IMG/VR virus record: IMGVR_UViG_2778261570_000017
Location: 1-19,403 of that record
Source of the DNA: a virus
Taxonomy: Duplodnaviria > Heunggongvirae > Uroviricota > Caudoviricetes
Length of the DNA: 19,403 nucleotides
Direction: 5' to 3' (one strand)
Numbering within the stretch: position 1 is the first letter of the stretch; each line of letters opens with the position of its first letter. The notes under the pieces were generated by a model. The model saw only the letters and a program-made list of their open reading frames with translations. It did no database searches and was not told the origin of the DNA. Shown piece by piece: positions 2,342 to 16,939 of this stretch. A program made the translations under genes and the position numbers.

Positions 2342-2358
2342 GAAACGAGTGACAGAAG

Positions 2359-2609: not shown

Positions 2610-2641
2610 ATCAAAACGTGTTCAGATGGCGGGATATTTAT

Positions 2642-2664: not shown

Positions 2665-2765
2665 GCGTCTGAATCTGATTAATCTATTTTTATGATAGAA
2701 ATATGTTTATCTACCACTTTTATCGATCAATAATGATGCCCGTTAATCAAAACGGAGGCGGATTT

Positions 2766-2960: not shown

Positions 2961-4873
2961 AAACATGGTTTTCCATTAAGGCGGCGGATGTGCGTGGAAC
3001 GGTGGAAATATCCATCTATGAAGAAATTGGCGGCTTCGGTATTACCGCGAAGCAGTTCTCGGAAGATCTGAAAGCCCTTGGCGATGTTTCACATATCGAC
3101 CTACGGATCCATTCGCCTGGCGGTGACGTGTTTGAAGGCATCGCCATCTATAACCTGCTACGGAATCATCCGGCAGACATTACGGTTTATATCGATGGCG
3201 TGGCGGCTTCAATGGCTTCGGTCGTCGCAATGGCTGGCGATCGCGTTGTTATGCCGGAGAACGCCATGATGATGATCCATAAGCCGTGGGGGATCTCTGG
3301 CGGAAATGCTGGCGATATGCGTGATTATGCTGATTTGCTGGATAAAGTGGAAACCGTGTTAATCCCTGCTTATGCCAGAAAAACAGGCAAATCAGCACAG
3401 GAAATTGCCGCCATGCTGGAAGATGAAACCTGGATGGACGGGAAAGAATGCCTTAAGCACGGTTTTGCTGATGAATTGTTGCCATCTGTCAGAGCAATGG
3501 CGCGAATTGAATCGAAACGCACAGGAGATTTTTTACATATGCCGGAAACCATTAAGGGAATGATTACCCCGCCGAAATCACAGGCAAAAAACACCATTAC
3601 AGGCGACCAGGAGCGCATTAACGGCATTAAAGAAATTTTTAGCGTGTTCGGCAACCAGTACGACGGGATCAAAATGTCGTGCCTTGAAGATGCATCCTGT
3701 ACGCTGGAAATGGCCCGGGAACGTCTGCTTAACGAAATGGGTAAAAACCACACACCAACAAATAAAAATATCCCGTCTCATATTTATGCCGGAAACGGGA
3801 ACATAACAGGCGATGCGATTCGCCAGGGCCTTTATTCCCGTCTTGGGTATGAGCGTCCTGAGCGTGGCAATCCTTACGCGATGATGAGTCTTTTTGAAAT
3901 GGCCCAGGCGTCACTGGTTGATCGTGGTATCAGTGTTGGCGGTTTTTTAAATCGCTCGCAGGTCGTTAATGCAGCTTTTACACACAGCAGCAGTGATTTT
4001 TCTCATATTCTGGCTGGCGGTGCTGAAAAATCAGTGCTGAAAGGCTGGCAGGACAGCGGCGAAACGTTCCAGAAGTGGACGCGTAGCGGATCGCTTTCAA
4101 ACTTTCACGAGGCAAAACGCGTTGGCCTGAATGGTTTTTCAAAACTGGATAAAGTGCCGGAAGGCGCGGAATATAAATACATTACTACCAGTGACAAGGG
4201 CGTACCTATTGCGCTGGCCACATACGGGAATATTTTTTCTGTTACCCGCCAGGCCATTATTAACGATGACCTGACCCAGTTAACTACAATCCCCATGGCG
4301 ATGGGGCGTGCAGCCGCCAGAACAGTAGGTAATCTGGTGTATCTCCTGTTAACCGGCAATGGCAAATTCACGGATGGTAAGGCGCTATTCCATGCCGATC
4401 ATAAAAATCTTATTGCGAAGGATATGGACATGGAGGGGCTTAACGAAGCCCGTAAGCTGATGCGCCTCCAGGAGGACGCTAACGGTGATTCGCTGAATAT
4501 TACCCCCGCATTTGTCCTGGTCCCCGCCGCGCTGGAGTCTGCCGCACATCGCGCCATTCTGTCATCGTCATCACTCTTTCAGGTTGATGGTGAGGGCACT
4601 ATCAATCAGAACCCCGGCATCATTAACGTGGTGAAAGATATGGCTGAGGTTATTGTTGAGCCACGTCTTGATAAGAACAATAACAAGGAGTGGTATGTAG
4701 CCGCAGCGAAAGGGATGGACACGATAGAGGTCGCTTATCTTGATGGTATTGATACGCCATATCTTGAGGAGCAGGAGGGCTTTACTGTTGATGGTGTCGC
4801 CTGGAAGGTGCGCATAGATGCAGGTGTTGCGGCCCTCGATTATCGTGGACTACTGAAATCGAGTGGAGCATGA
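2957..4873 (+). CDS. Prohead protease (ClpP/S14-like) fused to HK97-fold major capsid protein, copy 1
   Basis: 638 aa. N-terminal about 190 aa carries protease motifs (HSPGGDVFEG, DGVAASMAS, MMIHKPWG); the C-terminal region is colinear and homologous along its full length with the second copy at 8636-10696. AGGAG RBS at 2944-2948. Confidence 0.85.
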   Translation: MKTWFSIKAADVRGTVEISIYEEIGGFGITAKQFSEDLKALGDVSHIDLRIHSPGGDVFEGIAIYNLLRNHPADITVYIDGVAASMASVVAMAGDRVVMPENAMMMIHKPWGISGGNAGDMRDYADLLDKVETVLIPAYARKTGKSAQEIAAMLEDETWMDGKECLKHGFADELLPSVRAMARIESKRTGDFLHMPETIKGMITPPKSQAKNTITGDQERINGIKEIFSVFGNQYDGIKMSCLEDASCTLEMARERLLNEMGKNHTPTNKNIPSHIYAGNGNITGDAIRQGLYSRLGYERPERGNPYAMMSLFEMAQASLVDRGISVGGFLNRSQVVNAAFTHSSSDFSHILAGGAEKSVLKGWQDSGETFQKWTRSGSLSNFHEAKRVGLNGFSKLDKVPEGAEYKYITTSDKGVPIALATYGNIFSVTRQAIINDDLTQLTTIPMAMGRAAARTVGNLVYLLLTGNGKFTDGKALFHADHKNLIAKDMDMEGLNEARKLMRLQEDANGDSLNITPAFVLVPAALESAAHRAILSSSSLFQVDGEGTINQNPGIINVVKDMAEVIVEPRLDKNNNKEWYVAAAKGMDTIEVAYLDGIDTPYLEEQEGFTVDGVAWKVRIDAGVAALDYRGLLKSSGA

Positions 4874-4880
4874 CAACAAG

Positions 4881-4903
4881 GGCGGCGATAGCCGCCTTTT
4901 TTT
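4881..4903 (+). terminator. Rho-independent terminator-like hairpin after capsid copy 1
   Basis: GGCGGC (4881-4886), loop GATA, GCCGCC (4891-4896), then TTTTTTT (4897-4903). Confidence 0.6.
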
Positions 4904-4978
4904 ACGGGTCCTCCCGGTGGAGTGGCCTTGCCACGGGGCGGGAGCGGCGCGGAAAAAGGCTAGTTTTTGCATTTTCAT
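4898..4978 (+). other. cos-like site copy 2 (cosQ-like TTTACGGGTCCT at 4901-4912, cosN-like GGGCGGGAGCGG at 4936-4947)
   Basis: Direct repeat of 2378-2455 with about 5 mismatches. Sits where lambda cos sits, roughly 190 bp upstream of the Nu1-like TerS start. Confidence 0.65.
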
Positions 4979-5132
4979 TCATCATCATCATCTTTTCAAT
5001 GCATTGAATTTAAACGAATTTTATTTTTAGTATGTTAATTTTGCGTGTTTTTTGGTCAACATATAACGCACTTTATAACGCTTTTTGAGAAGGTGTTCGC
5101 AAGATGCATGTTTAAAACATTCTGGAGCGGGT
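4979..5132. promoter_or_regulatory. cosB-like AT-rich region between cosN-like site and TerS (candidate TerS/IHF binding sites)
   Basis: Perfect palindrome CAATGCATTG at 4997-5006, about 50 bp after the cosN-like 12-mer (the same family of palindrome sits 47 and 128 bp after the cos copy 1 12-mer). Also tandem ATAACGC and near-palindrome ATGTTTAAAACAT. Confidence 0.4.
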
Positions 5133-5618
5133 ATGGATCGAGAACTGAAAAATCTGATGCTGAACATTAACCAACTGGCGGCGATAGCGGGAATATGTCG
5201 TCAGACTGCGGCGGCAAGGCTGAAAAACATCCAGCCAGCCGGAGGACATGACAAGCTGAAACTCTATCGGGTGACTGACATTCTGACCTGTTTTCTTGAT
5301 CTTCCCGTTCCGGCATCACTGGAAGAAATGGAGCCACATGACCGTAAGGCCTGGTATCAGTCTGAACGTGAGCGCCTCAAGTTCGAACAGGAAACGGCGC
5401 AACTCATACCCGCCGATGATGTGCGAAAAGAGATGGCTATATGGGCGGAAATCGTAAGCGAGGAACTGGCAAAACTCCCCAGTATTCTGGCACGTGATGC
5501 GGGGCTTAAACCGATGGCAGTAAACAGAGTGCAGTCAATTATTGACGATTTGTGTAATCAGATTATCAGCCGGATGGTAAAAAATGACGCAGTGAATGAG
5601 GATGTAAAACAGGCATGA
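5133..5618 (+). CDS. Terminase small subunit (lambda Nu1-like)
   Basis: GGAG 5 nt upstream of the ATG at 5133. N-terminal LNINQLAAIAGICRQTAAARL resembles the Nu1 winged-HTH region (recalled lambda Nu1 MEVNKKQLADIFGASIRTIQNW). Position immediately downstream of cos. Confidence 0.7.
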   Translation: MDRELKNLMLNINQLAAIAGICRQTAAARLKNIQPAGGHDKLKLYRVTDILTCFLDLPVPASLEEMEPHDRKAWYQSERERLKFEQETAQLIPADDVRKEMAIWAEIVSEELAKLPSILARDAGLKPMAVNRVQSIIDDLCNQIISRMVKNDAVNEDVKQA

Positions 5619-5864
5619 TAATGACTGGCGCCGTGATCCCCCGTGCTACCGGAATCAGACTACCAGAAGGCAAACAGAAGACCACGCAGTCGGGCAGCGT
5701 CATCGTGTTAATGCATGGCGGCGTATTCTGCTTTTAATTAATATTGCTACCTTTTTTCTTTTTTTATCGCTTAGGCAGGTACTAAATCTTGGACTATGTG
5801 AATGGGGTTACAACTAAATAGTACCTTATAATCATTTAGTTACCTTTTATTTACTTCTTCCTGG

Positions 5865-6977
5865 ATGGAAGGCCCCGCTGCGGCATATCAGACGCTGTCC
5901 CAGCTGGTCTATAAGTTGCTGACCGCCGAACAGGAATACGAGTCGACCGGAAGCGAAGAAACGCTCAAGACAGTCATCAACACCGACTGGGGATTACCTT
6001 ATCTTCCCCGGGCCAGCATGGAGCAACGAAAAAGCGAACTGCTTGAGCAGCGGGCAGAGCCTGTTCCTCCCCGAAGTGTGCCGGATGGCGTTAATTTCCT
6101 TGCGGCGACAGTGGATGTGCAGGCGGGACGTCATCGCCGTTTTGTGGTTCAGGTAACGGGCTATGGCAGTCGTGGCGAACGCTGGATAGTTGATCGTTAC
6201 AACATCACGCAGTCGCTGCGTTGTGACAATAACGGAGAAAGCCTGCGTATTGACCCTGCCGGTTATCCGGAGGACTGGGATGTTCTGCTGACGGATGTTT
6301 TTCATAAAGGCTGGCCGCTGGCTTCTGATCCTTCTCAACAAATGCGACTGATGGCAATGGCGGTGGACTCCGGCGGTGAAGACGGGGTCACTGATAATGC
6401 CTATAAATTCTGGCGTCGTTGCCGTCGTGATGGCCTTGGTAAACGTATTTACCTGTTTAAGGGCGACAGTATCCGTCGCGCAAAACTGATAACCCGTACA
6501 TTTCCGGATAACACCGGACGAACGGGGCGACGGGCGCAGGCTTCGGGTGATGTTCCACTCTGGCTCCTTCAGACGGATGCCCTGAAAGACCGGGTGAATA
6601 ACGCGTTATGGCGTGACTCGCCAGGTCCCGGCTATGTGCATTTTCCTGACTGGCTGGGGAGCTGGTTTTACGACGAACTGACGTATGAAGAGCGGAGCAG
6701 TGACGGAAAGTGGAGTAAGCCGGGTCGCGGTGCCAACGAAGCCTTTGACCTGATGGTGTATGCCGAGGCGCTGGTTATTCTGCATGGGTACGAGAAAATT
6801 CAGTGGCCGGATGCGCCGGAATGGGCATGCAGGGAAACCTGGCTGGAATACGTCAGTGACAACGCTGAGCAGGCTGTTCTGCCGGAACCAGTCTCTCTGC
6901 CTGCCAGAAAAAAGAAACGAAAAAAAGTGACGCCCGATGAGGATAACCCCTGGGTGACTTCCGGAGGATGGTTATGA
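5865..6977 (+). CDS. Terminase large subunit (lambda gpA-like), C-terminal nuclease domain only; N-terminally truncated, possibly a pseudogene
   Basis: 370 aa, colinear with roughly the C-terminal half of lambda gpA as recalled (ATVDVQAGRHRRFVVQVTGYGSRGERWIVDR vs AGIDSQLDRYEMRVWGWGPGEESWLIDR; ANEAFDLMVYAEAL vs RNEALDCFVYALAA). No Walker A segment, and only 246 bp lie between TerS and this ORF. No clear RBS. Confidence 0.75.
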   Translation: MEGPAAAYQTLSQLVYKLLTAEQEYESTGSEETLKTVINTDWGLPYLPRASMEQRKSELLEQRAEPVPPRSVPDGVNFLAATVDVQAGRHRRFVVQVTGYGSRGERWIVDRYNITQSLRCDNNGESLRIDPAGYPEDWDVLLTDVFHKGWPLASDPSQQMRLMAMAVDSGGEDGVTDNAYKFWRRCRRDGLGKRIYLFKGDSIRRAKLITRTFPDNTGRTGRRAQASGDVPLWLLQTDALKDRVNNALWRDSPGPGYVHFPDWLGSWFYDELTYEERSSDGKWSKPGRGANEAFDLMVYAEALVILHGYEKIQWPDAPEWACRETWLEYVSDNAEQAVLPEPVSLPARKKKRKKVTPDEDNPWVTSGGWL

Positions 6978-7186
6978 ATCAGAATGATATTGAAGCCATG
7001 ATCCAGCGTTATATCGATGCGGAAATGGCAGTGCTGGACGGAAAATCCGTCACCTTTAATGGTCAGCAAATGACCATGGAAAATCTGTCCGAGATCCGCC
7101 GGGGACGTCAGGAGTGGGAGCGGCGTCTTGCTGCCCTGACTGCGCGGCGACGGGGGAACCCGGGATATAAACTGGTGAGGTTCTGA
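6974..7186 (+). CDS. Head-tail joining protein (lambda gpW-like)
   Basis: About 70 aa. ATG 6974 overlaps the TerL stop (ATGA); stop overlaps the portal ATG at 7186 (TGATG). C-terminus ...RRRGNPGYKLVRF resembles lambda W ...RRRGPAGFYV. Confidence 0.6.
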   Translation: MNQNDIEAMIQRYIDAEMAVLDGKSVTFNGQQMTMENLSEIRRGRQEWERRLAALTARRRGNPGYKLVRF

Positions 7187-8691
7187 TGGCAATTCTGGAT
7201 GATGTGATTGGTGTTTTTTCTCCAGGCTGGAAAGCGGCGAGGTTGCGCTCAAGAGCGTTAATCCGCGCTTATGAGGCTGTGAAACCCACACGCACACACA
7301 AAGCCCGACGGGAAAACCGTTCTGCCGACCAGCTCAGTAAGTACGGGGCGGTTTCCCTGCGGGAGCAGGCCCGTTTTCTGGATATCAATCATGACCTCGT
7401 AATCGGCGTTTTCGACAAGCTTGAGGAGCGGGTGATTGGTGCAAAGGGGATCATTGTTGAACCCCAGCCATTACTGAAAAACGGTGGTGTGGCTACAGAG
7501 CTGGCAATGATTATCCGTCGTTTGTGGGCGGAATGGTCTGTCAGTCCGGATGTGACCGGGCAGCATACGCGCCCCATGCTCGAACGTCTGCTGTTGCGTA
7601 CCTGGTTACGTGATGGAGAAGTGTTTGCCCAGATGGTCAGAGGCGCAGGTGCCGGGCTGGCACGGACTGCCGGTGTGCCTTTCTGGCTTGAGGCAATGGA
7701 GCCTGATTTTGTGCCCATGCTCAGTGATGAGTCTGCGGGAATGAATCAGGGAGTTTTTCTGGATAAATGGGGCAGGCCGAAAAAATACCTGGTTTATAAA
7801 AATTATCCGGTTCCCGGGCGACAGAGCGAAACCAAAGAGATCGCCGCTGAAAATATGGTGCATCTGAAGTTTACCCGCCGGCTGCACCAGACGCGTGGTA
7901 CATCCATGTTGTCGGGTGTGCTGATACGGATCAGTGCACTTAAGGAGTACGAGGATTCTGAGTTGGTTGCAGCGCGTGTTGCTGCGGCTCTGGGGTTATA
8001 TATTCGTAAAGGAGATGGACAGGATTATGAGGAACCTGTGACAAATAAAGATAATGATCGGGAACTGCATATCACTCCCGGCATTATTTATGACGATCTG
8101 CGTAAGGGGGAAGATATTGGCATGGTCAAATCTGATCGGCCTAACCCTAATCTGGAAACTTTTCGTAATGGTCAGTTGCGGGCTATGGCGGCGGGCACTC
8201 GTCTGAGCTTTTCCAGTGCAGCACGTAACTATAACGGTACCTACAGTTCCCAGCGACAGGAGCTGGTTGAGTCCACCGATGGCTATCTGATCCTGCAGGA
8301 CTGTTTTATTGGTGCTGTAACCCGTCCGGTGTACCGGGCATGGCTGAATATGGTGATTGCCGCGGGGTTGCTGAAAATTCCGTCGGATGTGGATATGAAA
8401 ACGTTATATAACGCAACATATTCTGGCCCTGTGATGCCGTGGATCGACCCAGTCAAGGAGGCTGAAGCCTGGAAAATTCAGATCCGGGGTGGTGCGGCGA
8501 CAGAATCAGACTGGGTGCGCGCCAGTGGTCGTAATCCGGATGACGTCAAACGTCGGCGCAAAGCTGAGATTGATGAAAACCGCAGGCTGGAACTGGTATT
8601 TGATACCGATCCGGCAAGTGATAAAGGAGGTGGTAATGCTGAAACAGAACGCGTGGTTCCGCGGCGAACCGAAGGCCAGCCTGAAGAATAA
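7186..8691 (+). CDS. Portal protein
   Basis: 501 aa, in the canonical position between W and the protease-capsid gene and translationally coupled to W. Confidence 0.7.
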   Translation: MAILDDVIGVFSPGWKAARLRSRALIRAYEAVKPTRTHKARRENRSADQLSKYGAVSLREQARFLDINHDLVIGVFDKLEERVIGAKGIIVEPQPLLKNGGVATELAMIIRRLWAEWSVSPDVTGQHTRPMLERLLLRTWLRDGEVFAQMVRGAGAGLARTAGVPFWLEAMEPDFVPMLSDESAGMNQGVFLDKWGRPKKYLVYKNYPVPGRQSETKEIAAENMVHLKFTRRLHQTRGTSMLSGVLIRISALKEYEDSELVAARVAAALGLYIRKGDGQDYEEPVTNKDNDRELHITPGIIYDDLRKGEDIGMVKSDRPNPNLETFRNGQLRAMAAGTRLSFSSAARNYNGTYSSQRQELVESTDGYLILQDCFIGAVTRPVYRAWLNMVIAAGLLKIPSDVDMKTLYNATYSGPVMPWIDPVKEAEAWKIQIRGGAATESDWVRASGRNPDDVKRRRKAEIDENRRLELVFDTDPASDKGGGNAETERVVPRRTEGQPEE

Positions 8692-10696
8692 TTCCTGGTT
8701 CAGAATGAAGGCGGGTCATAAAAGTGATGCGGATATTTATATCTATGACGAGATTGGTTTTTGGGGTGTTACGGCGAAACAGTTTGTCAGTGATCTGAAT
8801 GCGCTGGGCAATATTACCCACATTAATCTCCATATCAATTCACCGGGTGGCGATGTCTTTGAAGGCATCGCCATTTTTAATGCGCTGAAAAATCACGGAG
8901 CGTCCATCACTGTTTATGTGGATGGCGTTGCCGCATCCATGGCATCGGTCATTGCAATGGTGGGGGATCCCGTCATCATGCCGGAAAATGCATTCATGAT
9001 GATACATAAACCATGGGGAGTGAGTGGTGGCGATGCGGATGATATGCGCGATTATGCTGACCTGCTTGATAAAGTTGAGGCGGTCCTGTTGCCTGCTTAT
9101 GCGCAAAAAACCGGAAAAACGACAGATGAAATTGCTGCCATGCTGAAAGATGAAACCTGGATGTCCGGAGCTGAATGTCTGGCACACGGATTTGCTGACC
9201 AGGTGACACCGAAAGTTAAGGCAATGGCATGCATTCAGTCAAAACGAACAGAGGAATTTAAAAAAATGCCAGAATCCATCCGAAATATGATTATTCCGCC
9301 ACGCAACAGTGCAACGCGTGAACCTGAAAACAAAAATACTGCATCTCAGACACAGGAGCAGACTACGGCTCAGGTTGTCACAACCGCGACCATTGCGAAT
9401 GCGTCTTCCGCAGATGAAAGCAGTATCCGTGCACAGGTGCTGGCTGAGCAAAAAGCACGCGTGAGTGGTATTAATGACCTGTTTGGTATGTTTGGCGGGC
9501 GTTATCAGACATTGCAGGCCAGTTGCCTTTCCGATCCGGAGTGCTCGCTTGAGCAGGCCCGTGAGAAATTACTTAACGAAATGGGTAAGGAATTTTCACC
9601 ATCAAATAAAAACACCCCGTCCCATATTTATGCCGGCAACGGTAATTTTGTGGGAGACGGGATCCGACAGGCGCTGATGGCGCGCGCCGGATTTGCTGAG
9701 CGTGAGCAGGATAACGTCTATAACGGGATGACCCTGCGTGAATATGCCCGAATGTCACTGACAGAGCGTGGTATTGGGGTTTCCGGGTATAACCCGATGC
9801 AGATGGTGGGGGCAGCGTTCACCCACAGCACGTCTGACTTCGGTAATATTCTGTTAGATGTTGCGAACAAAGCCATTCTGCAGGGCTGGGAAGAAGCGCC
9901 TGAAACCTACGAACAGTGGACCCGAAAAGGTCAGCTGTCTGATTTTAAAATCGCTCATCGTGTGGGTATGGGGGGCTTCAGTTCTCTGCGTCAGGTGCGT
10001 GAGGGGGCGGAATATAAGTACGTCACCACCGGAGATAAACAGGCCACGATTGCACTGGCGACCTATGGCGAACTGTTCAGCATCACCCGCCAGGCCATTA
10101 TCAACGATGATCTGAATATGCTGACCGATGTTCCGATGAAACTGGGGCGTGCGGCGAAATCCACGATTGCCGATCTGGTTTATGCCATTCTGACATCTAA
10201 CCCGAAAATCTCCACGGATAATGTGAGCCTGTTCGATAAAGCGAAACATGCAAACGTACTGGAGAGCGCAGCAATGGACGTGGCATCGCTGGATAAAGCC
10301 CGCCAGTTGATGCGCGTTCAGAAAGAAGGTGAGCGTCATCTGAATATTCGCCCTGCGTTCGTACTGGTACCGACGGCGATGGAGTCTGTTGCTAACCAGG
10401 TTATTCGCTCCTCAAGTGTCAAGGGGGCTGACATTAACGCCGGTATTATTAACCCGGTGAAAGATTTTGCGACCGTTATTGCAGAGCCGCGCCTTGATGA
10501 TAACAGCCAGACCACCTTTTATCTGGCTGCGGCGAAAGGTACGGATACCATCGAAGTGGCTTATCTCAATGGGGTGGATACGCCATATATTGATCAGATG
10601 GAGGGCTTCAGCGTGGACGGCGTGACAACGAAAGTGCGTATTGACGCCGGTGTTGCACCAGTTGATCACCGCGGTCTGGTGAAATGTACGGCGTAA
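8636..10696 (+). CDS. Prohead protease (ClpP/S14-like) fused to HK97-fold major capsid protein, copy 2 (canonical head position)
   Basis: Strong RBS AAGGAGGTGG at 8624-8633 before the ATG at 8636; the ORF-track start at 8489 lies inside the portal gene. Same architecture as copy 1, plus a T/Q/A-rich low-complexity insertion of about 45 aa. Confidence 0.85.
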   Translation: MLKQNAWFRGEPKASLKNNSWFRMKAGHKSDADIYIYDEIGFWGVTAKQFVSDLNALGNITHINLHINSPGGDVFEGIAIFNALKNHGASITVYVDGVAASMASVIAMVGDPVIMPENAFMMIHKPWGVSGGDADDMRDYADLLDKVEAVLLPAYAQKTGKTTDEIAAMLKDETWMSGAECLAHGFADQVTPKVKAMACIQSKRTEEFKKMPESIRNMIIPPRNSATREPENKNTASQTQEQTTAQVVTTATIANASSADESSIRAQVLAEQKARVSGINDLFGMFGGRYQTLQASCLSDPECSLEQAREKLLNEMGKEFSPSNKNTPSHIYAGNGNFVGDGIRQALMARAGFAEREQDNVYNGMTLREYARMSLTERGIGVSGYNPMQMVGAAFTHSTSDFGNILLDVANKAILQGWEEAPETYEQWTRKGQLSDFKIAHRVGMGGFSSLRQVREGAEYKYVTTGDKQATIALATYGELFSITRQAIINDDLNMLTDVPMKLGRAAKSTIADLVYAILTSNPKISTDNVSLFDKAKHANVLESAAMDVASLDKARQLMRVQKEGERHLNIRPAFVLVPTAMESVANQVIRSSSVKGADINAGIINPVKDFATVIAEPRLDDNSQTTFYLAAAKGTDTIEVAYLNGVDTPYIDQMEGFSVDGVTTKVRIDAGVAPVDHRGLVKCTA

Positions 10697-10719
10697 ACGT
10701 CGCAGACAACAACGCTGAT

Positions 10720-10772
10720 GGCCCGTAAGGGCTTTTTTTGTACCTGAAATCAGCCCCGTTCAGGGGGCTTTG
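10720..10772 (+). terminator. Two consecutive hairpins after capsid copy 2 (attenuator/terminator-like)
   Basis: GCCC-GTAA-GGGC followed by TTTTTTT (10720-10739), then AGCCCC / GGGGCT hairpin (10752-10769). Confidence 0.45.
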
Positions 10773-10783
10773 CGGAGGCAGTT

Positions 10784-11107
10784 ATGGCAAAGAATTTTGT
10801 GGAAGACGGGAAAACGGTGGAGATTGTCGCTGGCGCAAATATCAGTAGCGGAGAGCTGGTACAGGTGGGCGATATTTTTGCTGTGGCACTGACCGATATT
10901 GCAAAAGGCGAAATTGGGGACGGCATGACTGAAGGTGTATTTATGCTGCCGAAACTGAAAACGGATGATATGAAAACCGGTAAGAAGGTTTATCTGAAGT
11001 CCGGAAAAGTTCAGCTGACTAACAGCGGCTCTGATCCGCTGGTCGGGGTTGTCTGGGCAGATGCCGGAACCAGTGCAGAAGAAGTGCCGGTAAAACTCAA
11101 TGTCTGA
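10784..11107 (+). CDS. Small head protein, DUF2190-like (possible decoration or head-completion protein)
   Basis: 107 aa, GGAGG at 10774-10778, located directly after the major capsid gene. Family assignment is from recollection. Confidence 0.45.
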   Translation: MAKNFVEDGKTVEIVAGANISSGELVQVGDIFAVALTDIAKGEIGDGMTEGVFMLPKLKTDDMKTGKKVYLKSGKVQLTNSGSDPLVGVVWADAGTSAEEVPVKLNV

Positions 11108-11375
11108 TCCCTTTTCCCGGCTGGCAGCGCGTATGGATGCTATCACGGTCAGAAAGATGGGAAAGACAGCCTCGATTAATGATGTCGATATGACCGTGAT
11201 CCCGGGAGAAACACTGGCAGAGCTGAATGCTCTGTCCGGACCTGCGGTCTCTCTGGTTGTGTTTTCTTCGGGATACCGCCCACGGCGCGGGGATCGCGTT
11301 GTTTATGACGGACAACAATGGACGGTCACACGGCATGAACGCTTTAACGGTAAGCCAATGATCTTTATTGAGTAA
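11100..11375 (+). CDS. Head-tail connector / head completion protein (lambda gpFII-like)
   Basis: 91 aa. ATG overlaps the preceding stop. C-terminal RRGDRVVYDGQQWTVTRHE resembles lambda FII RRGDTLTIGEENFWVDRVS. Confidence 0.5.
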   Translation: MSDPFSRLAARMDAITVRKMGKTASINDVDMTVIPGETLAELNALSGPAVSLVVFSSGYRPRRGDRVVYDGQQWTVTRHERFNGKPMIFIE

Positions 11376-11386
11376 AGAGGTGTGGG

Positions 11387-11965
11387 ATGAAGGGGCTTGA
11401 GAATGCCATCCGCAATCTGAACAGCCTTGATACCCGTATGGTGCCACAGGCCAGCGCATGGGCGATAAACCGTGTGGCACAGAAAGCGGTCTCGGTTGCC
11501 ACCCGGCAGGTTGCCGGGAATACCGTTGCGGGAGATAACCAGGTGAAAGGGATCCCCCTGAAACTGGTACGTCAGCGTGTCCGGGTGTTTAAAGCCAGTC
11601 CGTCAGGAAAAATGACGGCCAGGATCCGCGTTAACCGGGGCAATCTGCCCGCCATTAAGCTGGGAACAGCCCGGGTCAGACTGGCCCGGCGTGGTGGAAA
11701 ACTGCAGTACCGTGGCAGTGTGCTGAAGGTGGGTAAATATCTTTTCCGGGATGCGTTTATTCAGCAACTGGCGAATGGTCGCTGGCATGTGATGCGGCGT
11801 ATTGATGGCAAAAATCGTTACCCCATTGATGTGGTGAAAATCCCGCTGTCCGGACCGCTGACACAGGCATTTGAAGATGCCCGCGACCGCATCATTGCTG
11901 CGGAAATGCCGAAACAGCTGGGGTATGCACTGAAACAACAACTGAGGTTATGGCTGACCCGATGA
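11387..11965 (+). CDS. Tail completion protein (lambda gpZ-like)
   Basis: 192 aa, the same length as lambda Z; position between FII-like and U; RBS AGAGGTG upstream. Confidence 0.6.
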   Translation: MKGLENAIRNLNSLDTRMVPQASAWAINRVAQKAVSVATRQVAGNTVAGDNQVKGIPLKLVRQRVRVFKASPSGKMTARIRVNRGNLPAIKLGTARVRLARRGGKLQYRGSVLKVGKYLFRDAFIQQLANGRWHVMRRIDGKNRYPIDVVKIPLSGPLTQAFEDARDRIIAAEMPKQLGYALKQQLRLWLTR

Positions 11966-12363
11966 ACCGACATACACAAATCCGCCAGGCCGTACTGGCA
12001 CGCCTTCGGGAACAGTGTGGAGACAGCGCCACGTTTTTTGACGGGCTTCCGGCATTTATTGATGCGCAGGAACTGCCTGCCGTGGCGGTGTGGCTGAGTG
12101 ATGCTCAGTACACCGGAAAAATGACGGATGAAGATGACTGGCAGGCTGTTCTGCATATTGCCGTCTTCATCCGGGCACAGGCACCGGATTCAGAGCTGGA
12201 TATGTGGATGGAGAGCACCATTTTTCCTGCCCTGAATGATATACCGGCACTTTCCGGACTCATCGACACCCTGATCCCACTCGGTTTTAACTATCAACGT
12301 GATAATGAGATGGCCACCTGGGCGATGGCGGAAATCACGTACCAGATCACGTACACGAATTAA
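11962..12363 (+). CDS. Tail terminator protein (lambda gpU-like)
   Basis: Strong similarity to recalled lambda U (TFFDGLPAFIDAQELPAVAVWLSDAQYTGKMTDEDDWQAVLHIAVF vs TFFDGRPAVFDEADFPAVAVYLTGAEYTGEELDSDTWQAELHIEVF). ATG 11962 overlaps the Z stop (ATGA); the alternative ATG at 11950 is less likely. Confidence 0.85.
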   Translation: MNRHTQIRQAVLARLREQCGDSATFFDGLPAFIDAQELPAVAVWLSDAQYTGKMTDEDDWQAVLHIAVFIRAQAPDSELDMWMESTIFPALNDIPALSGLIDTLIPLGFNYQRDNEMATWAMAEITYQITYTN

Positions 12364-12373
12364 GGAGGTGGCA

Positions 12374-13117
12374 ATGACCACACCAAATCCACTGGCAAAG
12401 ACGAAAGGTGCGGGGACGACGTTCTGGATGTATACCGGCAACGGCGATGCGTTTGCGAACCCTTTGTCGGACACTGACTGGCTGCGTCTTGCGATGGTGA
12501 AGGATCTGCAGCCTGGCGAAATGACCGCTGATGCAGAAGATGACACTTATCTCGATGATGAAGATGCAGACTGGAAAACGACAACCCAGGGGCAGAAATC
12601 CGTCGGTGATACTTCGGCGACGCTGGCCTGGCGTCCGGGTGACAGCGGGCAGAAAAAACTGGTTCAGTTGTTCGACTCCGGTGAAGTCTGCGCGTTTCGT
12701 ATCAAATATCCCAACGGCACTGTTGATGTTTTCCGCGGCTGGCTGAGCTCACTGGGTAAAACCATTGCCTCAAAAGACGTGATGACCCGCACTGTGAAAA
12801 TCAGCGGTGTGGGGCGTCCGTATCTGGCAGAGGAAGGCACTGAAACCGTGAGCGTTACCGGGCTGACGGTGGCACCGGCATCTGCCAGTGTAAAAGTGGG
12901 AGCAACCACCACGCTGACCTTTACAGTAAAACCTGACGGAGCCAGTGACAAAGCGATCAGTGTGCATTCGACAGATCCACAGACTGCCACGGTGACCCTG
13001 AACGGGCTTGTGGCCACGGTGAAAGGCGTGAAGCAGGGCAGTGTCAGCATTGTGGGCATGACTTCTGACGGCGATTTTGTGGCCGTGGCTGCGGTGGCTG
13101 TCAGCGCCGCAGGTTAA
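12374..13117 (+). CDS. Major tail protein (lambda gpV-like) with C-terminal Ig-like domain
   Basis: RBS AAGGAGGTG before the ATG at 12374. N-terminus MTTPNPLAKTKGAGTTFWMYTGNGDAFANPLSD matches lambda V [33 protein letters not shown]. The ORF-track start at 12299 lies inside U. Confidence 0.9.
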   Translation: MTTPNPLAKTKGAGTTFWMYTGNGDAFANPLSDTDWLRLAMVKDLQPGEMTADAEDDTYLDDEDADWKTTTQGQKSVGDTSATLAWRPGDSGQKKLVQLFDSGEVCAFRIKYPNGTVDVFRGWLSSLGKTIASKDVMTRTVKISGVGRPYLAEEGTETVSVTGLTVAPASASVKVGATTTLTFTVKPDGASDKAISVHSTDPQTATVTLNGLVATVKGVKQGSVSIVGMTSDGDFVAVAAVAVSAAG

Positions 13118-13137
13118 CAGGACGATACTCATCATTT

Positions 13138-13161
13138 GCCCCGGTTATCCGGGGCTTTTTT
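13138..13161 (+). terminator. Strong hairpin plus T-run between V and G (terminator/attenuator)
   Basis: GCCCCGG (13138-13144), loop TTAT, CCGGGGC (13149-13155), then TTTTTT (13156-13161). Confidence 0.65.
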
Positions 13162-13177
13162 GCAAGTGGAGAACATG

Positions 13178-13564
13178 ATGTTTCTGAAACAGGGCACGTT
13201 TAATTATGAAAAGCAGTCCGTGGTGCTCAGTGAGCTGTCCGGGCTGCAGAGAATTGAATATCTGGCGTTTGTTCAGCAGCGAACGGCAAAGTTTGATGCC
13301 GGGGAGGGAGAACTGCCGGAGGCTGAACGACAGATTGCTTTTCTGCGGATGGGGATGGATATCAATGCCTGGCTGGTTTCCCGCTCACTGTGGAATGCGG
13401 ATCAGTCTAAGGATGTAGAGACGCTTTGCGCATCCGTTATTACAACATGGTCGTATGATGCCCTGGGTGCGGGGGCGGAGATGGTTCTGTCGCTGAGCGG
13501 TATGGGGGCCATTGATAATGCCGGGGATGATGAGCATGAGGTGCTGACGCCGGAAAAGTCCTGA
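13178..13564 (+). CDS. Tail assembly chaperone (lambda gpG-like)
   Basis: MFLKQGTFNYEKQSVVLSELSGLQRIEYLAF resembles lambda G MFLKTESFEHNGVTVTLSELSALQRIEHLAL. GGAG 6 nt before the ATG at 13178. The ORF-track start at 13136 runs through the terminator hairpin. Confidence 0.85.
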   Translation: MFLKQGTFNYEKQSVVLSELSGLQRIEYLAFVQQRTAKFDAGEGELPEAERQIAFLRMGMDINAWLVSRSLWNADQSKDVETLCASVITTWSYDALGAGAEMVLSLSGMGAIDNAGDDEHEVLTPEKS

Positions 13565-13902
13565 CGCGGGAAATGCAGTTTGTCATGCGGCTTGCCCGGG
13601 AGTTCCGGCGGGCAGACTGGCGGCGGATGCTGTCGGAAATGTCAGCCACTGAGCTTGGTGAGTGGGGCGATTATTTCCGGATGCAGAGCTTCAGTGATGT
13701 GTGGATGGATGCGCAGTTTGCCTCGCTGAAGGCATTGATCGTGAGAATGGTGTCCGGCAGCAGTGATGCTGCGGTGGCTGATTTCAGCCTTTTACCGGAA
13801 GAGAACGGGATACCGGAGCGAACGGACGAAGAACTGATGCATCTTGGGGAAGGTATTTCCGGAGGTGTGCGTTATGGACCAGATAGCCAACCTGGTCATT
13901 GA
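13540..13902 (+). CDS. gpT-like segment, expressed as the G-T fusion by -1 frameshift (-1 frame relative to G)
   Basis: Open frame in the -1 frame relative to G overlapping the G 3' end, typical of the conserved G/G-T tail chaperone pair. Confidence 0.6.
   Translation, partial: GADAGKVLTREMQFVMRLAREFRRADWRRMLSEMSATELGEWGDYFRMQSFSDVWMDAQFASLKALIVRMVSGSSDAAVADFSLLPEENGIPERTDEELMHLGEGISGGVRYGPDSQPGH
13552..13558 (+). promoter_or_regulatory. Candidate -1 programmed frameshift site GGAAAAG producing the G-T fusion
   Basis: The -1 frame is open only from 13540 and G stops at 13562-13564, so the shift must occur in 13540-13561. The only slippery candidate there is G-GAA-AAG (lambda uses G-GGA-AAG). 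Confidence 0.5.
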
Positions 13903-16900
13903 TTTGGGGATTGATGCGGCAGAGTTTAAAAATGAAATTCCCCGTATCAAAAACCTTCTGAATGGTGCAGCCAGCGATGCAGAACGCTCTTCTGCCCGTA
14001 TGCAGCGTTTTATGGAGCGTCAGACTCAGGCCGCCCGGCAGACAACGCAGGCGGCTTCTTCGGCTGCAACAGCCGCATCCGTCCATGCGCAGACGGTGGA
14101 GAAGAACGCACAGGTTCATGAACGCATGGCCCGCGAGGTGGAGAAAACCCGCCAGCGCATGGAGGCACTGAGCCAGAAAATGCACGAGGAACAGGCGCAG
14201 GCCATGGCTCTGGCGGAGGCTCAGGATAAAGCGGCTGCTGCGTTTTATCGTCAGATTGACAGTGTGAAACAGGCCAGTGCGGGGCTGCAGGAATTACAGC
14301 GTATTCAGCAGCAGATCCGACAGGCCAGAAACAGTGGCGGGATTGGTCAGCAGGATTATCTGGCGCTGATTTCTGATGTTACGGCGAAAACCCGTGTTCT
14401 TACACAGGCTGAGGAAGAGGCAACCCGACAGAAAGTGGCGTTTATCCGTCAGCTTAAAGAGCAGGCAACCCGCCAGAATCTTTCATCTTCTGAGTTGCTT
14501 CGTGCTAAGGCTGCCCAGCTGGGGGTAAGCAGTGCTGCAGAAGTGTATATCCGCAAAATGGAGCAGGCAGGAAAAGCCACGCATTCGCTGGGTCTGAAAA
14601 GTGCAGCGGCCCGCCAGGAGATAGGCGTTCTGATAGGTGAACTGGCCCGCGGCAATTTAGGGGCGCTGAGGGGATCCGGGATAACGCTGGCTAACCGTGC
14701 CGGATGGATAGACACACTGATGTCACCGAAAGGCATGATGCTGGGCGGGGTTATTGGCGGTATTGCCGCGGCTGTCTATGGTCTGGGTAAAGCCTGGTAT
14801 GACGGTCAGAAGGAGGGGGAAGAATTTAACCGCCAGCTGTCGCTGACGGGGCATTATGCCGGAGTCACTGCCGGGCAGCTGTGGACGCTCAGTCGTGCTA
14901 TTTCCGGGAATGGTATCACGCAACATGCTGCAGCCGGTGCGCTGGCTCAGGTGGTGGGGAGTGGTGCATTTCGTGGAAACGATATCGGTATGGTGGCGAG
15001 AGCTGCCGCACAGATGGAGCGATCGGTTGGCCAGTCGGTCAGCGATACCATAAGTCAGTTTAAGCGGCTGAAGGATGATCCTGTAAATGCCGCGAAGGCT
15101 CTGGACAATGAGCTGCATTTTCTTACTGCCACTCAGCTTGAGCAGATACGCGTCCTTGGGGAACAGGGGCGGTCCAGTGATGCGGCACGGATAGCCATGT
15201 CTGCACTGGCAGAGGAAACCGGTCGGCGTACTGCGGATATTGATAATAACCTCAATGCGCTGGGTAGTACGCTGCAAACCTTGTCTGACTGGTGGAAGCA
15301 GTTCTGGGATGCGGCCATGAATATTGGTCGTGAAGATTCGCTGGATGCGCAGATTGCCACTTTGCAGGAGAAAGTATCGCGGGCGAAAAGACTCCCCTGG
15401 ACGGCATCATCTTCTCAGGTTGAATACGATCAGCAGCGTCTTAACGAGCTTCAGGAGAAAAAACGCCAGAAGGATTTGCAGGATGCAAAAGAGCAGGCAG
15501 AGCGGAATTATCAGGAGCAACAGAAACGCCGTAATGCTGAAAATGCTGCACTGAACCGGATGAATGAAACGGAAGCAGCACGACATCAGCGTGAAATTGC
15601 GCGTATTAATGCCATGCAGTACGCCGATCAGGCTGTCAGGGATGCGGCGATACAACGTGAAAATGAACGTTACGAGAAAGCCCTGGCATCCGGTAAGAAA
15701 AAAACACGCGAAACCCGTAATGATGAGGCCACCCGGTTATTGCTGCAGTACAGTCAGCAACAGGCACAGGTGGAAGGACAGATTGCTGCTGCCAGACAGT
15801 CAGCAGGCATTGCCACGGAAAGGATGACAGAAGCGCATAAACAGCTTCTGGCTCTGCAGCAGCGCATCAGTGACCTGGACGGGAAAAAACTGACGGCAGA
15901 TGAAAAGAGTGTACTGGCCCGTAAAGATGAACTGATTCAGGCACTGACGCTGCTGGATGTAAAACAGCAGGAGCTTCAGAAACAGACGGCACTCAACGAG
16001 CTGAAGAAAAAAACAATTCAGCTGACCAGTCAACTGGCTGAAGAAGAGCGCGCTCAGCGTCAGCAACATGACCTGGATATCGCCACGGTGGGTATGGGTG
16101 ATCAGCAGAGGCAGCGATATCAGGTACAACTGAGTCTTCGCCAGAAATACCAGCAACAGCTGGAGCAGTTGAGGCGGGATAGTGAGCAGAAAGGGACATA
16201 TAACACGGATGACTACAGAAAGGCCGAGCAGGCGCTGACGGAGAGCCTGAACCGACAACTGAATGAGAATCGCCGTTACTGGCAACAGCTTGAAGTTGTG
16301 CAGGGTAACTGGAAAAACGGAGTCCTGCGTGCATTTCAGGATTTTACCGTGGATGCAGATAATACGGCAGGAACAGCAGAACAGGTGTTCTCGTCAGCCT
16401 TCAGCAACATGGGAAATGGCCTGGCAACTTTTGTCACTACCGGCAAACTCAATTTCAAATCCTTCACCTCTTCTGTGCTGTCAGATATGGCGAAAATCCT
16501 GGCGCAGGCAACCATGATGAAATCGATAAAAGGGATTGGCAGTGTACTGGGATTTGATCTCAGCAGCCTTTCCCTGAATGCCAATGGGGGGATTTATCAG
16601 TCTGCTGATTTGAGTCGTTACAGTGGCACGGTGGTTAACCGTCCGACGTTTTTTGCTTTTGCAAAAGGCGCGGGTGTGATGGGAGAAGCGGGGCCTGAAG
16701 CCATTCTGCCACTGCGTCGTGGTGCTGATGGCAAGCTGGGTGTTGTGGCGGATATTGGTGGTTCAGGTATGGTGATGTTTGCCCCGCAGTACAACATCGA
16801 GATCAATAACGATGGTACGAACGGGCAGATAGGTCCGGCTGCCCTGAAGGTGGTTTATGACCTCGGGAAAAAAGCAGCAGCGGACTTTATGCAACAGCAG

Positions 16901-16939
16901 TCCCGTGATGGTGGTCAGTTAAGCGGAGCGTATCGGTAA
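13874..16939 (+). CDS. Tail tape measure protein (lambda gpH-like)
   Basis: About 1021 aa, coiled-coil-rich. N-terminus MDQIANLVIDLGIDAAEF vs lambda H ...VGDLVVDLSLDAARF; C-terminus INNDGTNGQIGPAALKVVYD...RDGG matches lambda H. GGAGGTG RBS at 13861-13867. Confidence 0.9.
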   Translation: MDQIANLVIDLGIDAAEFKNEIPRIKNLLNGAASDAERSSARMQRFMERQTQAARQTTQAASSAATAASVHAQTVEKNAQVHERMAREVEKTRQRMEALSQKMHEEQAQAMALAEAQDKAAAAFYRQIDSVKQASAGLQELQRIQQQIRQARNSGGIGQQDYLALISDVTAKTRVLTQAEEEATRQKVAFIRQLKEQATRQNLSSSELLRAKAAQLGVSSAAEVYIRKMEQAGKATHSLGLKSAAARQEIGVLIGELARGNLGALRGSGITLANRAGWIDTLMSPKGMMLGGVIGGIAAAVYGLGKAWYDGQKEGEEFNRQLSLTGHYAGVTAGQLWTLSRAISGNGITQHAAAGALAQVVGSGAFRGNDIGMVARAAAQMERSVGQSVSDTISQFKRLKDDPVNAAKALDNELHFLTATQLEQIRVLGEQGRSSDAARIAMSALAEETGRRTADIDNNLNALGSTLQTLSDWWKQFWDAAMNIGREDSLDAQIATLQEKVSRAKRLPWTASSSQVEYDQQRLNELQEKKRQKDLQDAKEQAERNYQEQQKRRNAENAALNRMNETEAARHQREIARINAMQYADQAVRDAAIQRENERYEKALASGKKKTRETRNDEATRLLLQYSQQQAQVEGQIAAARQSAGIATERMTEAHKQLLALQQRISDLDGKKLTADEKSVLARKDELIQALTLLDVKQQELQKQTALNELKKKTIQLTSQLAEEERAQRQQHDLDIATVGMGDQQRQRYQVQLSLRQKYQQQLEQLRRDSEQKGTYNTDDYRKAEQALTESLNRQLNENRRYWQQLEVVQGNWKNGVLRAFQDFTVDADNTAGTAEQVFSSAFSNMGNGLATFVTTGKLNFKSFTSSVLSDMAKILAQATMMKSIKGIGSVLGFDLSSLSLNANGGIYQSADLSRYSGTVVNRPTFFAFAKGAGVMGEAGPEAILPLRRGADGKLGVVADIGGSGMVMFAPQYNIEINNDGTNGQIGPAALKVVYDLGKKAAADFMQQQSRDGGQLSGAYR

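What the first reader, a model, noticed from the sequence alone, without database searches (positions are those of the whole stretch)
13540..13575. G-T frameshift window contains GGAAAAG rather than the lambda GGGAAAG slippery heptamer
G (13178-13564) and the T frame (-1 relative to G, open from 13540) overlap by only 22 nt, so the conserved -1 programmed frameshift must occur within 13540-13561. The only slippery-like sequence there is G-GAA-AAG (13552-13558). It keeps the A-site AAG-to-AAA slip but needs a P-site Glu-tRNA to re-pair on GGA with a G:U at the middle position, a departure from the canonical X-XXY-YYZ rule. This predicts either lower frameshift efficiency or a tolerated variant.
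Basis: partly seen in the sequence, partly recalled or inferred. Interest (0 to 1): 0.4.

Follow-up and report, generated by a model that had tools for sequence, protein, structure and literature searches.

The report
Phage tail chaperone G-T frameshift site
This is the ribosomal slip site that lets a lambda-like E. coli prophage make a fused G-T tail-assembly chaperone; its GGAAAAG sequence differs by one base from lambda's GGGAAAG, but the same variant is already annotated in phages N15 and phi80 and is the commonest form in this gene family, so the finding is correct and ordinary.

Summary
G (13178-13564, Pfam lambda-G chaperone) and the -1 frame carrying a Phage_tail_T domain (open 13540-13902) overlap by 22 nt. 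The only slip-prone sequence there is G_GAA_AAG at 13552-13558.

Homologues support this as the real shift site:
- The slip lysine lies exactly 12 residues before the conserved LAREF motif, as in lambda.
- The -1 frame protein is conserved from the residue right after that lysine in 41 lineages.
- The database-annotated T start codon (ATG 13573) occurs in only 3 of those 41 lineages.
- In some relatives the permitted shift window shrinks to 16 nt and still contains GGAAAAG.

The variant is not rare. In a scan that did not constrain the heptamer, 20 of 27 lineages carry GGAAAAG and 2 carry lambda's GGGAAAG. GenBank records for N15 and phi80 already label GGAAAAG as the -1 slippery sequence.

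No downstream RNA structure was found. A Shine-Dalgarno-like GAGGTG lies about 10 nt upstream. Its enrichment across relatives is explained by amino-acid composition, because synonymous recoding gives P = 0.22, so a stimulatory role is unproven.

Frameshift efficiency was not measured. This is a new, unannotated member of a known kind, and interest is low.

The parts
13178..13564 (+). Gene G, the tail assembly chaperone (128 aa, 14.1 kDa). This is the product of standard translation. An alternative in-frame ATG lies at 13175.
   Evidence: Pfam PF06894 Phage_TAC_2 (lambda G), E 2e-39. Annotated 'phage tail assembly chaperone G' in RefSeq at 100% identity. Size.
13552..13558 (+). Slip heptamer G_GAA_AAG. 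P-site GAA (Glu) moves to GGA and A-site AAG (Lys) moves to AAA.
   Evidence: In phase, and the only candidate in the 22-nt overlap. At the position homologous to lambda's G_GGA_AAG, 12 residues before LARE. Conserved at synonymous sites. The same heptamer is annotated as the slippery sequence in N15 and phi80.
13558..13902 (+). The -1 frame T segment, read after the shift (re-reading G13558). GT is 13178-13558 joined to 13558-13899, giving 241 aa and 27.0 kDa.
   Evidence: Pfam PF06223 Phage_tail_T, E 5e-15. Fusion translation. Residues +1 to +11 after the slip Lys are conserved in 41 lineages.
13537..13539 (+). TGA in the -1 frame that sets the 5' limit of the region where the shift can occur.
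13562..13564 (+). G stop codon (TGA, followed by C), one codon after the heptamer. It sets the 3' limit of the shift region.
   Evidence: The 'one codon then stop' layout is shared by 20 lineages.
13538..13543 (+). Shine-Dalgarno-like GAGGTG, a possible 5' stimulator whose function is unproven. The GAGG core ends 10 nt before the heptamer.
   Evidence: Predicted duplex with the 16S 3' tail is -9.2 kcal/mol, in the top 3.3% of window positions. The spacing falls in the 9-14 nt range reported for -1 frameshifting (PMC5009743). Synonymous recoding shows no excess.
13573..13575 (+). ATG used as the start of 'T' in several database records. It is probably not a real start.
   Evidence: Used in the mEp460, cdtI, Tritos and RefSeq TUM1881 records; Ayreon and PhiR40_1 annotate other starts. 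Met at this position occurs in only 3 of 41 lineages. Only GGG two nucleotides upstream could act as a ribosome-binding site.
12374..13117 (+). Major tail tube protein V. By analogy with lambda, this is the binding partner of the T domain.
   Evidence: Pfam PF16461 Phage_TTP_12 plus Big_2.
13874..16939 (+). Tape measure protein H. By analogy with lambda, this is the binding partner of the G domain. Its start overlaps the end of T by 29 nt.
   Evidence: Pfam TMP_2, TMP_4 and Tape_meas_lam_C. Start taken from the homologous RefSeq annotation.

Best explanation
The site is the programmed -1 ribosomal frameshift site of a lambda-type G/GT tail assembly chaperone gene pair, in an mEp460/cdtI-like prophage of E. 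coli.

Proposed sequence of events:
- Most ribosomes read G to its stop at 13562 and make the 14-kDa gpG.
- A minority slip back one base when GAA (tRNA-Glu) is in the P site and AAG (tRNA-Lys) is in the A site.
- tRNA-Lys re-pairs perfectly, and better, on AAA. tRNA-Glu re-pairs on GGA with G:C, G:U and A:U.
- Translation continues with GUC in the -1 frame to 13899, giving the 27-kDa gpGT (...TPEK-VLTREMQFVMRLAREF...).
- By analogy with lambda, the shared G part binds the tape measure protein and the T part recruits the tail tube protein. The low G:GT ratio is set by slip efficiency.

Shown here: gene identities, frames, the position of the site, its positional homology to lambda's site, nucleotide-level conservation, and protein-level conservation of the -1 frame starting right at the site.

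Inferred: that slippage occurs, that both tRNAs move together, and its frequency. The frequency is probably of the same order as lambda's few percent. No RNA structure stimulator is evident.
For: Gene identity and context:
- Pfam identifies G, T, V, H, U, Z, M and L in lambda order.

The shift window:
- The overlap is 22 nt and holds a single slip-prone heptamer in phase.
- In relatives L302, L107 and L275 the overlap is only 16 nt and still contains the heptamer.

Positional homology:
- The slip Lys is 12 residues before LAREF/M in the window and in lambda.
- At that fixed offset, 112 of 113 T-motif-anchored IMG/VR loci with an upstream G-like ORF carry NNNAAAR: GGAAAAG 59, GGGAAAG 44, AAAAAAG 6, and one each of three others.
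- Close homologues L094-L096 and L275 have canonical G_GGA_AAG followed by one codon and a stop, at the same place.

Conservation:
- After the Lys, the -1 frame is conserved as protein: E at +5 in 37 of 41 lineages and F at +8 in 41 of 41. The annotated ATG is present in 3 of 41.
- Synonymous choices are fixed as NNG-GAA-AAG, against backgrounds of 36%, 57% and 26%.
- The base before GAA is G whether the preceding residue is Pro, Ala, Leu or Val (most of the contributing junction sets were selected with G fixed at that base, so the heptamer-agnostic counts are the fair test).

Prior annotation and measurements:
- The N15 and phi80 GenBank records annotate GGAAAAG as the -1 slippery sequence, and phi80 carries a joined gpG-T CDS.
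- In the dnaX context in vivo, A_GAA_AAG still gave 20%, against 57% for G_GGA_AAG and 81% for A_AAA_AAG (Tsuchihashi and Brown values tabulated in PMC6787027, Suppl. Table 3). G_GAA_AAG adds a first-position G:C pair to that variant.
Against: - There is no direct evidence of a GT product or of frameshifting for this sequence or any GGAAAAG homologue in the material I could read.
- G_GAA_AAG itself is absent from the measured heptamer sets.
- No paper in the searchable library mentions GGAAAAG as a slip site.
- No downstream stimulatory structure was found: fold z-scores are -0.44 and +0.92, and there is no Rfam hit. Sharma 2014 found motifs barely shifty without stimulators.
- The prophage in this window looks defective, with a truncated terminase. 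The site may therefore not be in use in this particular genome.
Confidence: 0.87

Rival explanations
1. The site and product are the same, but only tRNA-Lys slips, on the tetramer A_AAG, in the A site or after translocation to the P site. Re-pairing of tRNA-Glu on GGA would then be irrelevant and the upstream GG incidental.
For: - A_AAG is by far the best tetramer in E. coli (PMC4066793).
- The common denominator of all family variants is A_AAR.
- Lineages with C_GCA_AAG (L585), G_GCA_AAA followed by a stop (L109, L112) and A_GAA_AAG (L546) have poor P-site re-pairing yet sit at the same position.
- dnaX variants with disrupted P-site pairing keep 5-29% activity.
Against: - In the heptamer-agnostic scan, 104 of 113 loci have GG at heptamer positions 1-2, and six more are the fully canonical A_AAA_AAG.
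- Position 1 is G across Pro, Ala, Leu and Val codons (though partly by selection of the sets).
- Tetramers alone were at background without a strong pseudoknot, and no such structure is present here.
Confidence: 0.25
2. The slip at G_GAA_AAG is boosted, as in dnaX, by pairing of the 16S rRNA tail with the Shine-Dalgarno-like GAGGTG at 13538-13543 about 10 nt upstream. This would compensate for a weaker heptamer and the lack of a downstream structure.
For: - The predicted duplex is -9.2 kcal/mol, in the top 3.3% of window positions. That is stronger than my from-memory dnaX element at -7.4.
- The spacing lies within the 9-14 nt reported for -1 frameshifting (PMC5009743).
- 22 GGAAAAG lineages with a nearby stop have a median of -5.9, against -3.3 for background (P = 1e-4), -3.1 for GGAAAAG lineages with a distant stop, and about -2 for GGGAAAG lineages. 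There is a positional peak at 7-10 nt.
Against: - Synonymous recoding that keeps the amino acids gives nearly the same SD-likeness: observed -5.72, null -5.31, P = 0.22. For the window itself, 18% of recodings are as good. The signal is therefore explained by the acidic, Gly-rich tail of G.
- Several lineages, including L274, L401, the N15 type and the phi80 type, have no such element.
- The commonest allele in E. coli has the weaker GAGGCG at -5.6.
Confidence: 0.2
3. There is no frameshift. T is made on its own from ATG 13573, the start given in several database records (mEp460, cdtI, Tritos, RefSeq).
For: - No record of this lineage that I inspected annotates slippage; each lists T as a separate CDS, although Ayreon and PhiR40_1 start it elsewhere than 13573.
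- An ATG exists at 13573.
Against: - Met at that position occurs in only 3 of 41 lineages, while the five -1 frame codons before it are conserved as protein.
- There is no usable ribosome-binding site.
- In lambda the T segment is expressed only as GT (review PMC5009743, and my knowledge of Levin et al. 1993).
- Homologues in N15, phi80 and Gifsy-2 are annotated as frameshift products.
Confidence: 0.04
4. Slippage is by RNA polymerase on the A run rather than by the ribosome.
For: The heptamer contains a run of four A.
Against: Productive transcriptional slippage in bacteria is described for runs of about 9 A or T (PMC5009743). Four A is far too short. Lineages keep AAAAG, not longer runs.
Confidence: 0.01

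Closest known systems
Bacteriophage lambda G / G-T programmed -1 frameshift (G_GGA_AAG)
   Same: - Homologous G and T domains and the same gene order, V-G-T-H.
- The slip Lys is at the same distance (12 residues) from the LARE motif.
- The A-site AAG-to-AAA slip is the same.
- No evident RNA structure stimulator.
   Different: - The P-site codon is GAA (Glu) rather than GGA (Gly). The re-paired G:U is therefore at the middle anticodon position instead of the wobble position.
- The G stop lies one codon after the heptamer instead of five.
- GT proteins are only 34% identical.
Phage N15 genes 14/15 and phage phi80 gpG-T (GenBank AF064539, FN582354)
   Same: The same heptamer, GGAAAAG, at the same homologous position is explicitly annotated as 'slippery sequence for -1 translational frameshift'.
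   Different: - These are lambda-like 'distant stop' versions, AEK followed by five more codons.
- They are about 36% identical to the window's GT.
- They lack the upstream GAGG.
Salmonella phage Gifsy-2 STM1039 / STM1041.1n
   Same: The same clade and the same CCG GAA AAG TCC TGA ending. The product is described as part of a G frameshift hybrid protein.
   Different: 55% identity. The record gives no joined CDS and no marked slip site.
E. coli dnaX -1 frameshift (A_AAA_AAG with a 5' Shine-Dalgarno-like element and a 3' stem-loop)
   Same: The A-site tRNA-Lys slip from AAG to AAA, and a Shine-Dalgarno-like sequence about 10 nt upstream.
   Different: - No 3' stem-loop.
- A non-identical P-site triplet.
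- The Shine-Dalgarno-like element is not supported by the synonymous-site test.
- Expected efficiency is a few percent, not 50%.
G_GAN_NNN and G_GUN_NNN shift sites of RNA viruses and T7 gene 10 (Atkins et al. 2016, PMC5009743)
   Same: The same kind of relaxed X_XX triplet, G_GA or G_GU, where the P-site tRNA re-pairs imperfectly at the middle position.
   Different: Most of these are eukaryotic ribosome systems with strong 3' structures or protein stimulators, and their A-site codons differ.

Membership tests
Lambda-type G/GT tail assembly chaperone with programmed -1 frameshift | The upstream ORF is a gpG-family chaperone. | tested here: met
   PF06894, E 2e-39, covering residues 1-120 of 128.
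Lambda-type G/GT tail assembly chaperone with programmed -1 frameshift | The -1 frame extension carries a gpT domain and overlaps the 3' end of G. | tested here: met
   PF06223, E 5e-15. The -1 frame is open 13540-13902 with a 22-nt overlap.
Lambda-type G/GT tail assembly chaperone with programmed -1 frameshift | Located between the major tail protein gene and the tape measure gene. | tested here: met
   V is at 12374-13117 and H at 13874-16939.
Lambda-type G/GT tail assembly chaperone with programmed -1 frameshift | The slip site lies at the position homologous to lambda's experimentally defined site. | tested here: met
   The Lys is 12 residues before LARE in both. The heptamer-agnostic scan places NNNAAAR at this offset in 112 of 113 loci.
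Lambda-type G/GT tail assembly chaperone with programmed -1 frameshift | Canonical X_XXY_YYZ heptamer. | tested here: not met
   The heptamer is G_GAA_AAG, so XXX is GGA. This feature is not strictly defining. The same heptamer is annotated in N15 and phi80, and relaxed G_GA triplets are documented.
Lambda-type G/GT tail assembly chaperone with programmed -1 frameshift | The T frame has no conserved start of its own, and protein conservation starts at the slip site. | tested here: met
   Met at +6 in 3 of 41 lineages. Positions +1, +2, +5 and +8 are conserved.
Lambda-type G/GT tail assembly chaperone with programmed -1 frameshift | A GT fusion protein is actually produced at a low ratio to G. 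| not testable with these tools
   This needs a reporter assay, a western blot or mass spectrometry.
dnaX-type stimulated -1 frameshift | A Shine-Dalgarno-like sequence 9-14 nt 5' of the heptamer, under selection. | tested here: inconclusive
   It is present in the window at -9.2 kcal/mol with a 10-nt spacer. It is enriched against background but not against synonymous recodings, P = 0.22.
dnaX-type stimulated -1 frameshift | A stable stem-loop or pseudoknot 5-9 nt 3' of the heptamer. | tested here: not met
   Folds of 13559-13610 and 13559-13650 are no better than shuffles, with z of +0.92 and -0.44. No Rfam match.
Tetramer (Z_ZZN) single-tRNA -1 slippage | A_AAG in phase, with P-site re-pairing dispensable. 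| tested here: inconclusive
   A_AAG is present. Conservation of GG at heptamer positions 1-2 in 104 of 113 loci argues that the P site matters. Rare lineages with GCA or A_GAA argue that it is not absolute.

The most novel reading that the evidence does not exclude
In the clade to which this window belongs, where the heptamer is followed by one codon and then the stop, the weaker G_GAA_AAG heptamer is assisted by rRNA pairing to an internal Shine-Dalgarno-like GAGG about 10 nt upstream. That would be a dnaX-style 5' stimulator not so far described for phage tail chaperone frameshifts, tuning the G:GT ratio. More broadly, the family offers a natural series of P-site triplets at one fixed position (GGA, GAA, AAA, GCA). 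The dominance of GAA would then mean that a middle-position G:U in the P site costs little or nothing in bacteria.
Probability: 0.2. Interest if true: 0.4.

Novelty: new member of a known kind. Interest (0 to 1): 0.18.

Why it matters
The value is mainly practical.

- **Annotation gap.** This G/T allele is present in 1848 of 5426 complete E. coli genomes. In every record of this lineage I inspected, T is annotated as a separate ORF (in several from ATG 13573, which is not conserved) and the GT fusion is missing.
- **Prediction tools.** Frameshift finders that require X_XXY_YYZ will miss what is the most common slip heptamer of the lambda G/T family by lineage, 20 of 27.
- **A natural experiment.** The set of P-site variants at a fixed position could be used to calibrate rules for P-site re-pairing in bacterial -1 frameshifting.

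It does not change the understanding of the mechanism.

Tried and rejected
- **Downstream stimulatory structure.** Two folds were no better than shuffles, and there was no Rfam hit.
- **Shine-Dalgarno-like stimulator.** It looked promising against genomic background and by position. It failed the control that recodes synonymous sites while keeping the protein, so I keep it only as a low-probability add-on.
- **Independent initiation of T at ATG 13573.** Rejected on conservation.
- **Transcriptional slippage.** Rejected because the A run is only four bases.
- **Naturally fused G-T proteins P0026 and P0045.** These turned out to be in-frame deletions. P0001 is an internal duplication. None of them is a frameshift product.
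- **The genome-contig scan.** It used narrow patterns and returned only 11 loci, so diversity came from IMG/VR and one metagenome scan instead.
- **The metagenome pattern.** It fixed GG at heptamer positions 1-2, so it cannot speak to conservation of those bases. For that I used the heptamer-agnostic IMG/VR scan.
- **Literature.** Xu, Hendrix and Duda 2004 and 2013 could not be retrieved. No paper in the library pairs GGAAAAG with slippery or frameshifting in a relevant sense.

Full report
**What is in the sequence.**
The G reading frame ends ...ACG CCG GAA AAG TCC TGA, with the stop at 13562-13564. The -1 frame is closed by TGA at 13537-13539 and then stays open to 13900-13902. The two frames therefore overlap over 13540-13561, 22 nt. 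GGAAAAG lies at 13552-13558 in the phase G_GAA_AAG. Joining the frames at this heptamer gives a 241-residue protein...DDEHEVLTPEK-VLTREMQFVMRLAREF....

**What the genes are.**
The upstream ORF is a lambda gpG-family chaperone (PF06894, E 2e-39). The -1 frame carries a Phage_tail_T domain (PF06223, E 5e-15). The neighbours are Z, U, V, H, M, L and I in lambda order.

The region is 98-99% identical to phages Tritos, mEp460, cdtI and Ayreon. It occurs in 1848 of 5426 complete E. coli genomes. None of the inspected records of this lineage annotates ribosomal slippage. They list T as a separate CDS, in several records starting at ATG 13573.

**Is this the real shift site?**
I collected G/T junctions from four sources:
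- IMG/VR, searched with protein queries.
- GTDB genomes.
- One metagenome scan.
- A scan of IMG/VR anchored only on the T motif LARE[FM]xRxDWR, which places no constraint on the heptamer.

Four results agree.

- *Positional homology.* The slip lysine is 12 residues before LARE in the window and in lambda, so the sites are positionally homologous.
- *Heptamers at the fixed offset.* 113 T-anchored loci with an upstream G-like ORF carry the following heptamers there. One further locus had no G-like ORF upstream and is left out.

| Heptamer | Loci |
|---|---|
| GGAAAAG | 59 |
| GGGAAAG | 44 |
| AAAAAAG | 6 |
| AGAAAAG | 1 |
| GGCAAAA | 1 |
| CGCAAAG | 1 |

- *A narrower window in relatives.* In some relatives the permitted window is only 16 nt and still contains the heptamer. 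Homologues at about 40% identity (L094-L096, L275) have canonical G_GGA_AAG plus one codon plus a stop at the same place.
- *Protein conservation in the -1 frame.* Across 41 lineages clustered at 80% GT identity, the -1 frame is conserved as protein from the first residue after the lysine: [VA]-L-x-x-E-x-x-F. E occurs at +5 in 37 of 41 and F at +8 in 41 of 41. The Met used as the annotated T start is present in only 3 of 41.

Codon choice at the site is fixed as NNG-GAA-AAG in all 12 representative lineages tested. Elsewhere in those genes Lys is AAG 26% of the time, Glu is GAA 57%, and third-position G is 36%.

**How unusual is GGAAAAG?**
It is not unusual within this family.
- By lineage it is the dominant form: 31 of 41 lineages overall, and 20 of 27 in the heptamer-agnostic scan, against 2 for GGGAAAG.
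- On a GT protein tree it occupies several deep branches, interleaved with GGGAAAG and GGCAAAA lineages.
- It is also already recorded. The GenBank entries for N15 (AF064539) and phi80 (FN582354) mark GGAAAAG as 'slippery sequence for -1 translational frameshift', and phi80 has a joined gpG-T CDS. Gifsy-2, from the window's own clade, describes its T as part of a frameshift hybrid protein.
- The Atkins et al. 2016 review lists G_GA and G_GU triplets as known intermediates between hexamer and heptamer sites (PMC5009743).
- PRFect lists an XXYYYY 'twofour' motif among those recurring in annotated frameshift overlaps that lack the canonical XXXYYY motif (PMC10885494).

**Mechanism.**
The A-site event is the classic E. 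coli one, in which the single tRNA-Lys pairs better with AAA than with AAG (PMC5009743). For the P site, tRNA-Glu moved from GAA to GGA keeps G:C and A:U and gains a middle G:U. This follows from the known anticodon and is not tested here.

The nearest measured variant is A_GAA_AAG in the dnaX context. It gave 20%, against 57% for G_GGA_AAG and 81% for A_AAA_AAG (Tsuchihashi and Brown values in PMC6787027, Suppl. Table 3). G_GAA_AAG restores the first-position pair, so I infer an efficiency between about one third of GGGAAAG and equal to it. That is an inference, not a measurement.

Conservation of G at heptamer positions 1 and 2 favours two-tRNA slippage over a lysine-only slip. In the heptamer-agnostic scan 104 of 113 loci have GG there. 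The preceding residue may be Pro, Ala, Leu or Val, although most of the sets behind that count were selected with G fixed at position 1. Rare lineages with GCA or A_GAA show that the P-site requirement is not absolute.

No downstream structure is detectable. This fits lambda, for which I recall none being required.

**The upstream Shine-Dalgarno-like element.**
GAGGTG at 13538-13543 pairs with the 16S tail at a predicted -9.2 kcal/mol. Its GAGG core ends 10 nt before the heptamer, inside the 9-14 nt range known for -1 stimulation.

Across 22 GGAAAAG lineages with a nearby stop, such sequences are enriched relative to background. The median is -5.9 against -3.3 (P = 1e-4), and there is a peak at 7-10 nt.

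When I recoded the upstream codons synonymously while keeping the protein, the expected SD-likeness was almost the same: null -5.31 against observed -5.72, P = 0.22. For the window alone, 18% of recodings are as good. The acidic, glycine-rich tail of G therefore explains the signal, and I rate a stimulatory role at about 0.2.

One oddity remains. The nine 'distant stop' GGAAAAG lineages are less SD-like than 99% of their recodings. This may simply reflect general avoidance of internal SD-like sequences.

**Verdict.**
This is the G-GT programmed -1 frameshift site of a lambda-like prophage. It uses a heptamer variant that is common in the family and already annotated in homologues, but overlooked in this lineage's database records. 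The prophage in this window also looks defective, which does not affect the reading of the site. Interest is low. The residual value lies in correcting annotation and in the natural series of P-site variants.

Noticed in passing
window 13138-13155 (+): A strong intrinsic-terminator-like hairpin, GCCCCGG-TTAT-CCGGGGC followed by T6, sits between the major tail gene V and G. The equivalent is annotated as a rho-independent terminator in mEp460 and N15, and as a terminator in Ayreon. It could lower transcription of G, T and H relative to V.
   Followed up: partly
window 2957-4873 and 8489-10696 (+); 5865-6977 (+): There are two ClpP-protease/major-capsid fusion ORFs in one window. The large terminase ORF holds only the GpA nuclease domain. 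Only window 5861-13387 aligns to mEp460 1505-9000, so the first ~1.5 kb of the packaging module is replaced. The window looks like a composite or defective prophage.
   Followed up: partly
window 13573 (+): The ATG used as the start of 'phage tail assembly protein T' in RefSeq and several phage records is present in only 3 of 41 lineages and has no usable ribosome-binding site. This is a systematic mis-annotation that affects thousands of E. coli genomes.
   Followed up: yes
window 11159-11165 (+) and 6908-6914 (+): Two canonical in-phase slippery heptamers occur elsewhere. G_GGA_AAG lies in ORF 11100-11375, where the -1 frame stops after 4 codons. A_AAA_AAG lies 20 codons before the end of the terminase ORF, where the -1 frame stops after 8 codons. 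Both are probably incidental.
   Followed up: no
L109 and L112 (about 1600-1615); L310, L319, L576: Some G/T lineages place the stop codon directly after the slip site. Examples are G_GCA_AAA TAG, with poor P-site re-pairing, and G_GAA_AAG TAG. A stop in the A-site-adjacent position may matter there.
   Followed up: no
L507 and L580 (A_AAA_AAG); L546 (A_GAA_AAG); L585 (C_GCA_AAG): Further heptamer variants occur at exactly the same offset from the T motif. Together they form a natural series of P-site triplets.
   Followed up: partly
proteins P0026, P0045, P0001: Public protein sets contain in-frame deletion fusions of G and T (215 and 212 aa) and a G with an internal duplication (182 aa). These are probably decaying prophages or assembly errors, not frameshift products.
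   Followed up: yes
nine 'distant stop' GGAAAAG lineages, e.g. L461 (N15 type) and L376 (phi80 type): The 22 nt upstream of the heptamer are less Shine-Dalgarno-like than 99% of synonymous recodings: observed -3.06 against null -4.65. I did not determine whether this is general avoidance of internal SD sequences or something specific to the site.
   Followed up: no
window 13874-13902 (+): The tape measure gene start (ATG 13874, as annotated in homologues) overlaps the end of the T frame by 29 nt, so GT termination and H initiation overlap.
   Followed up: no
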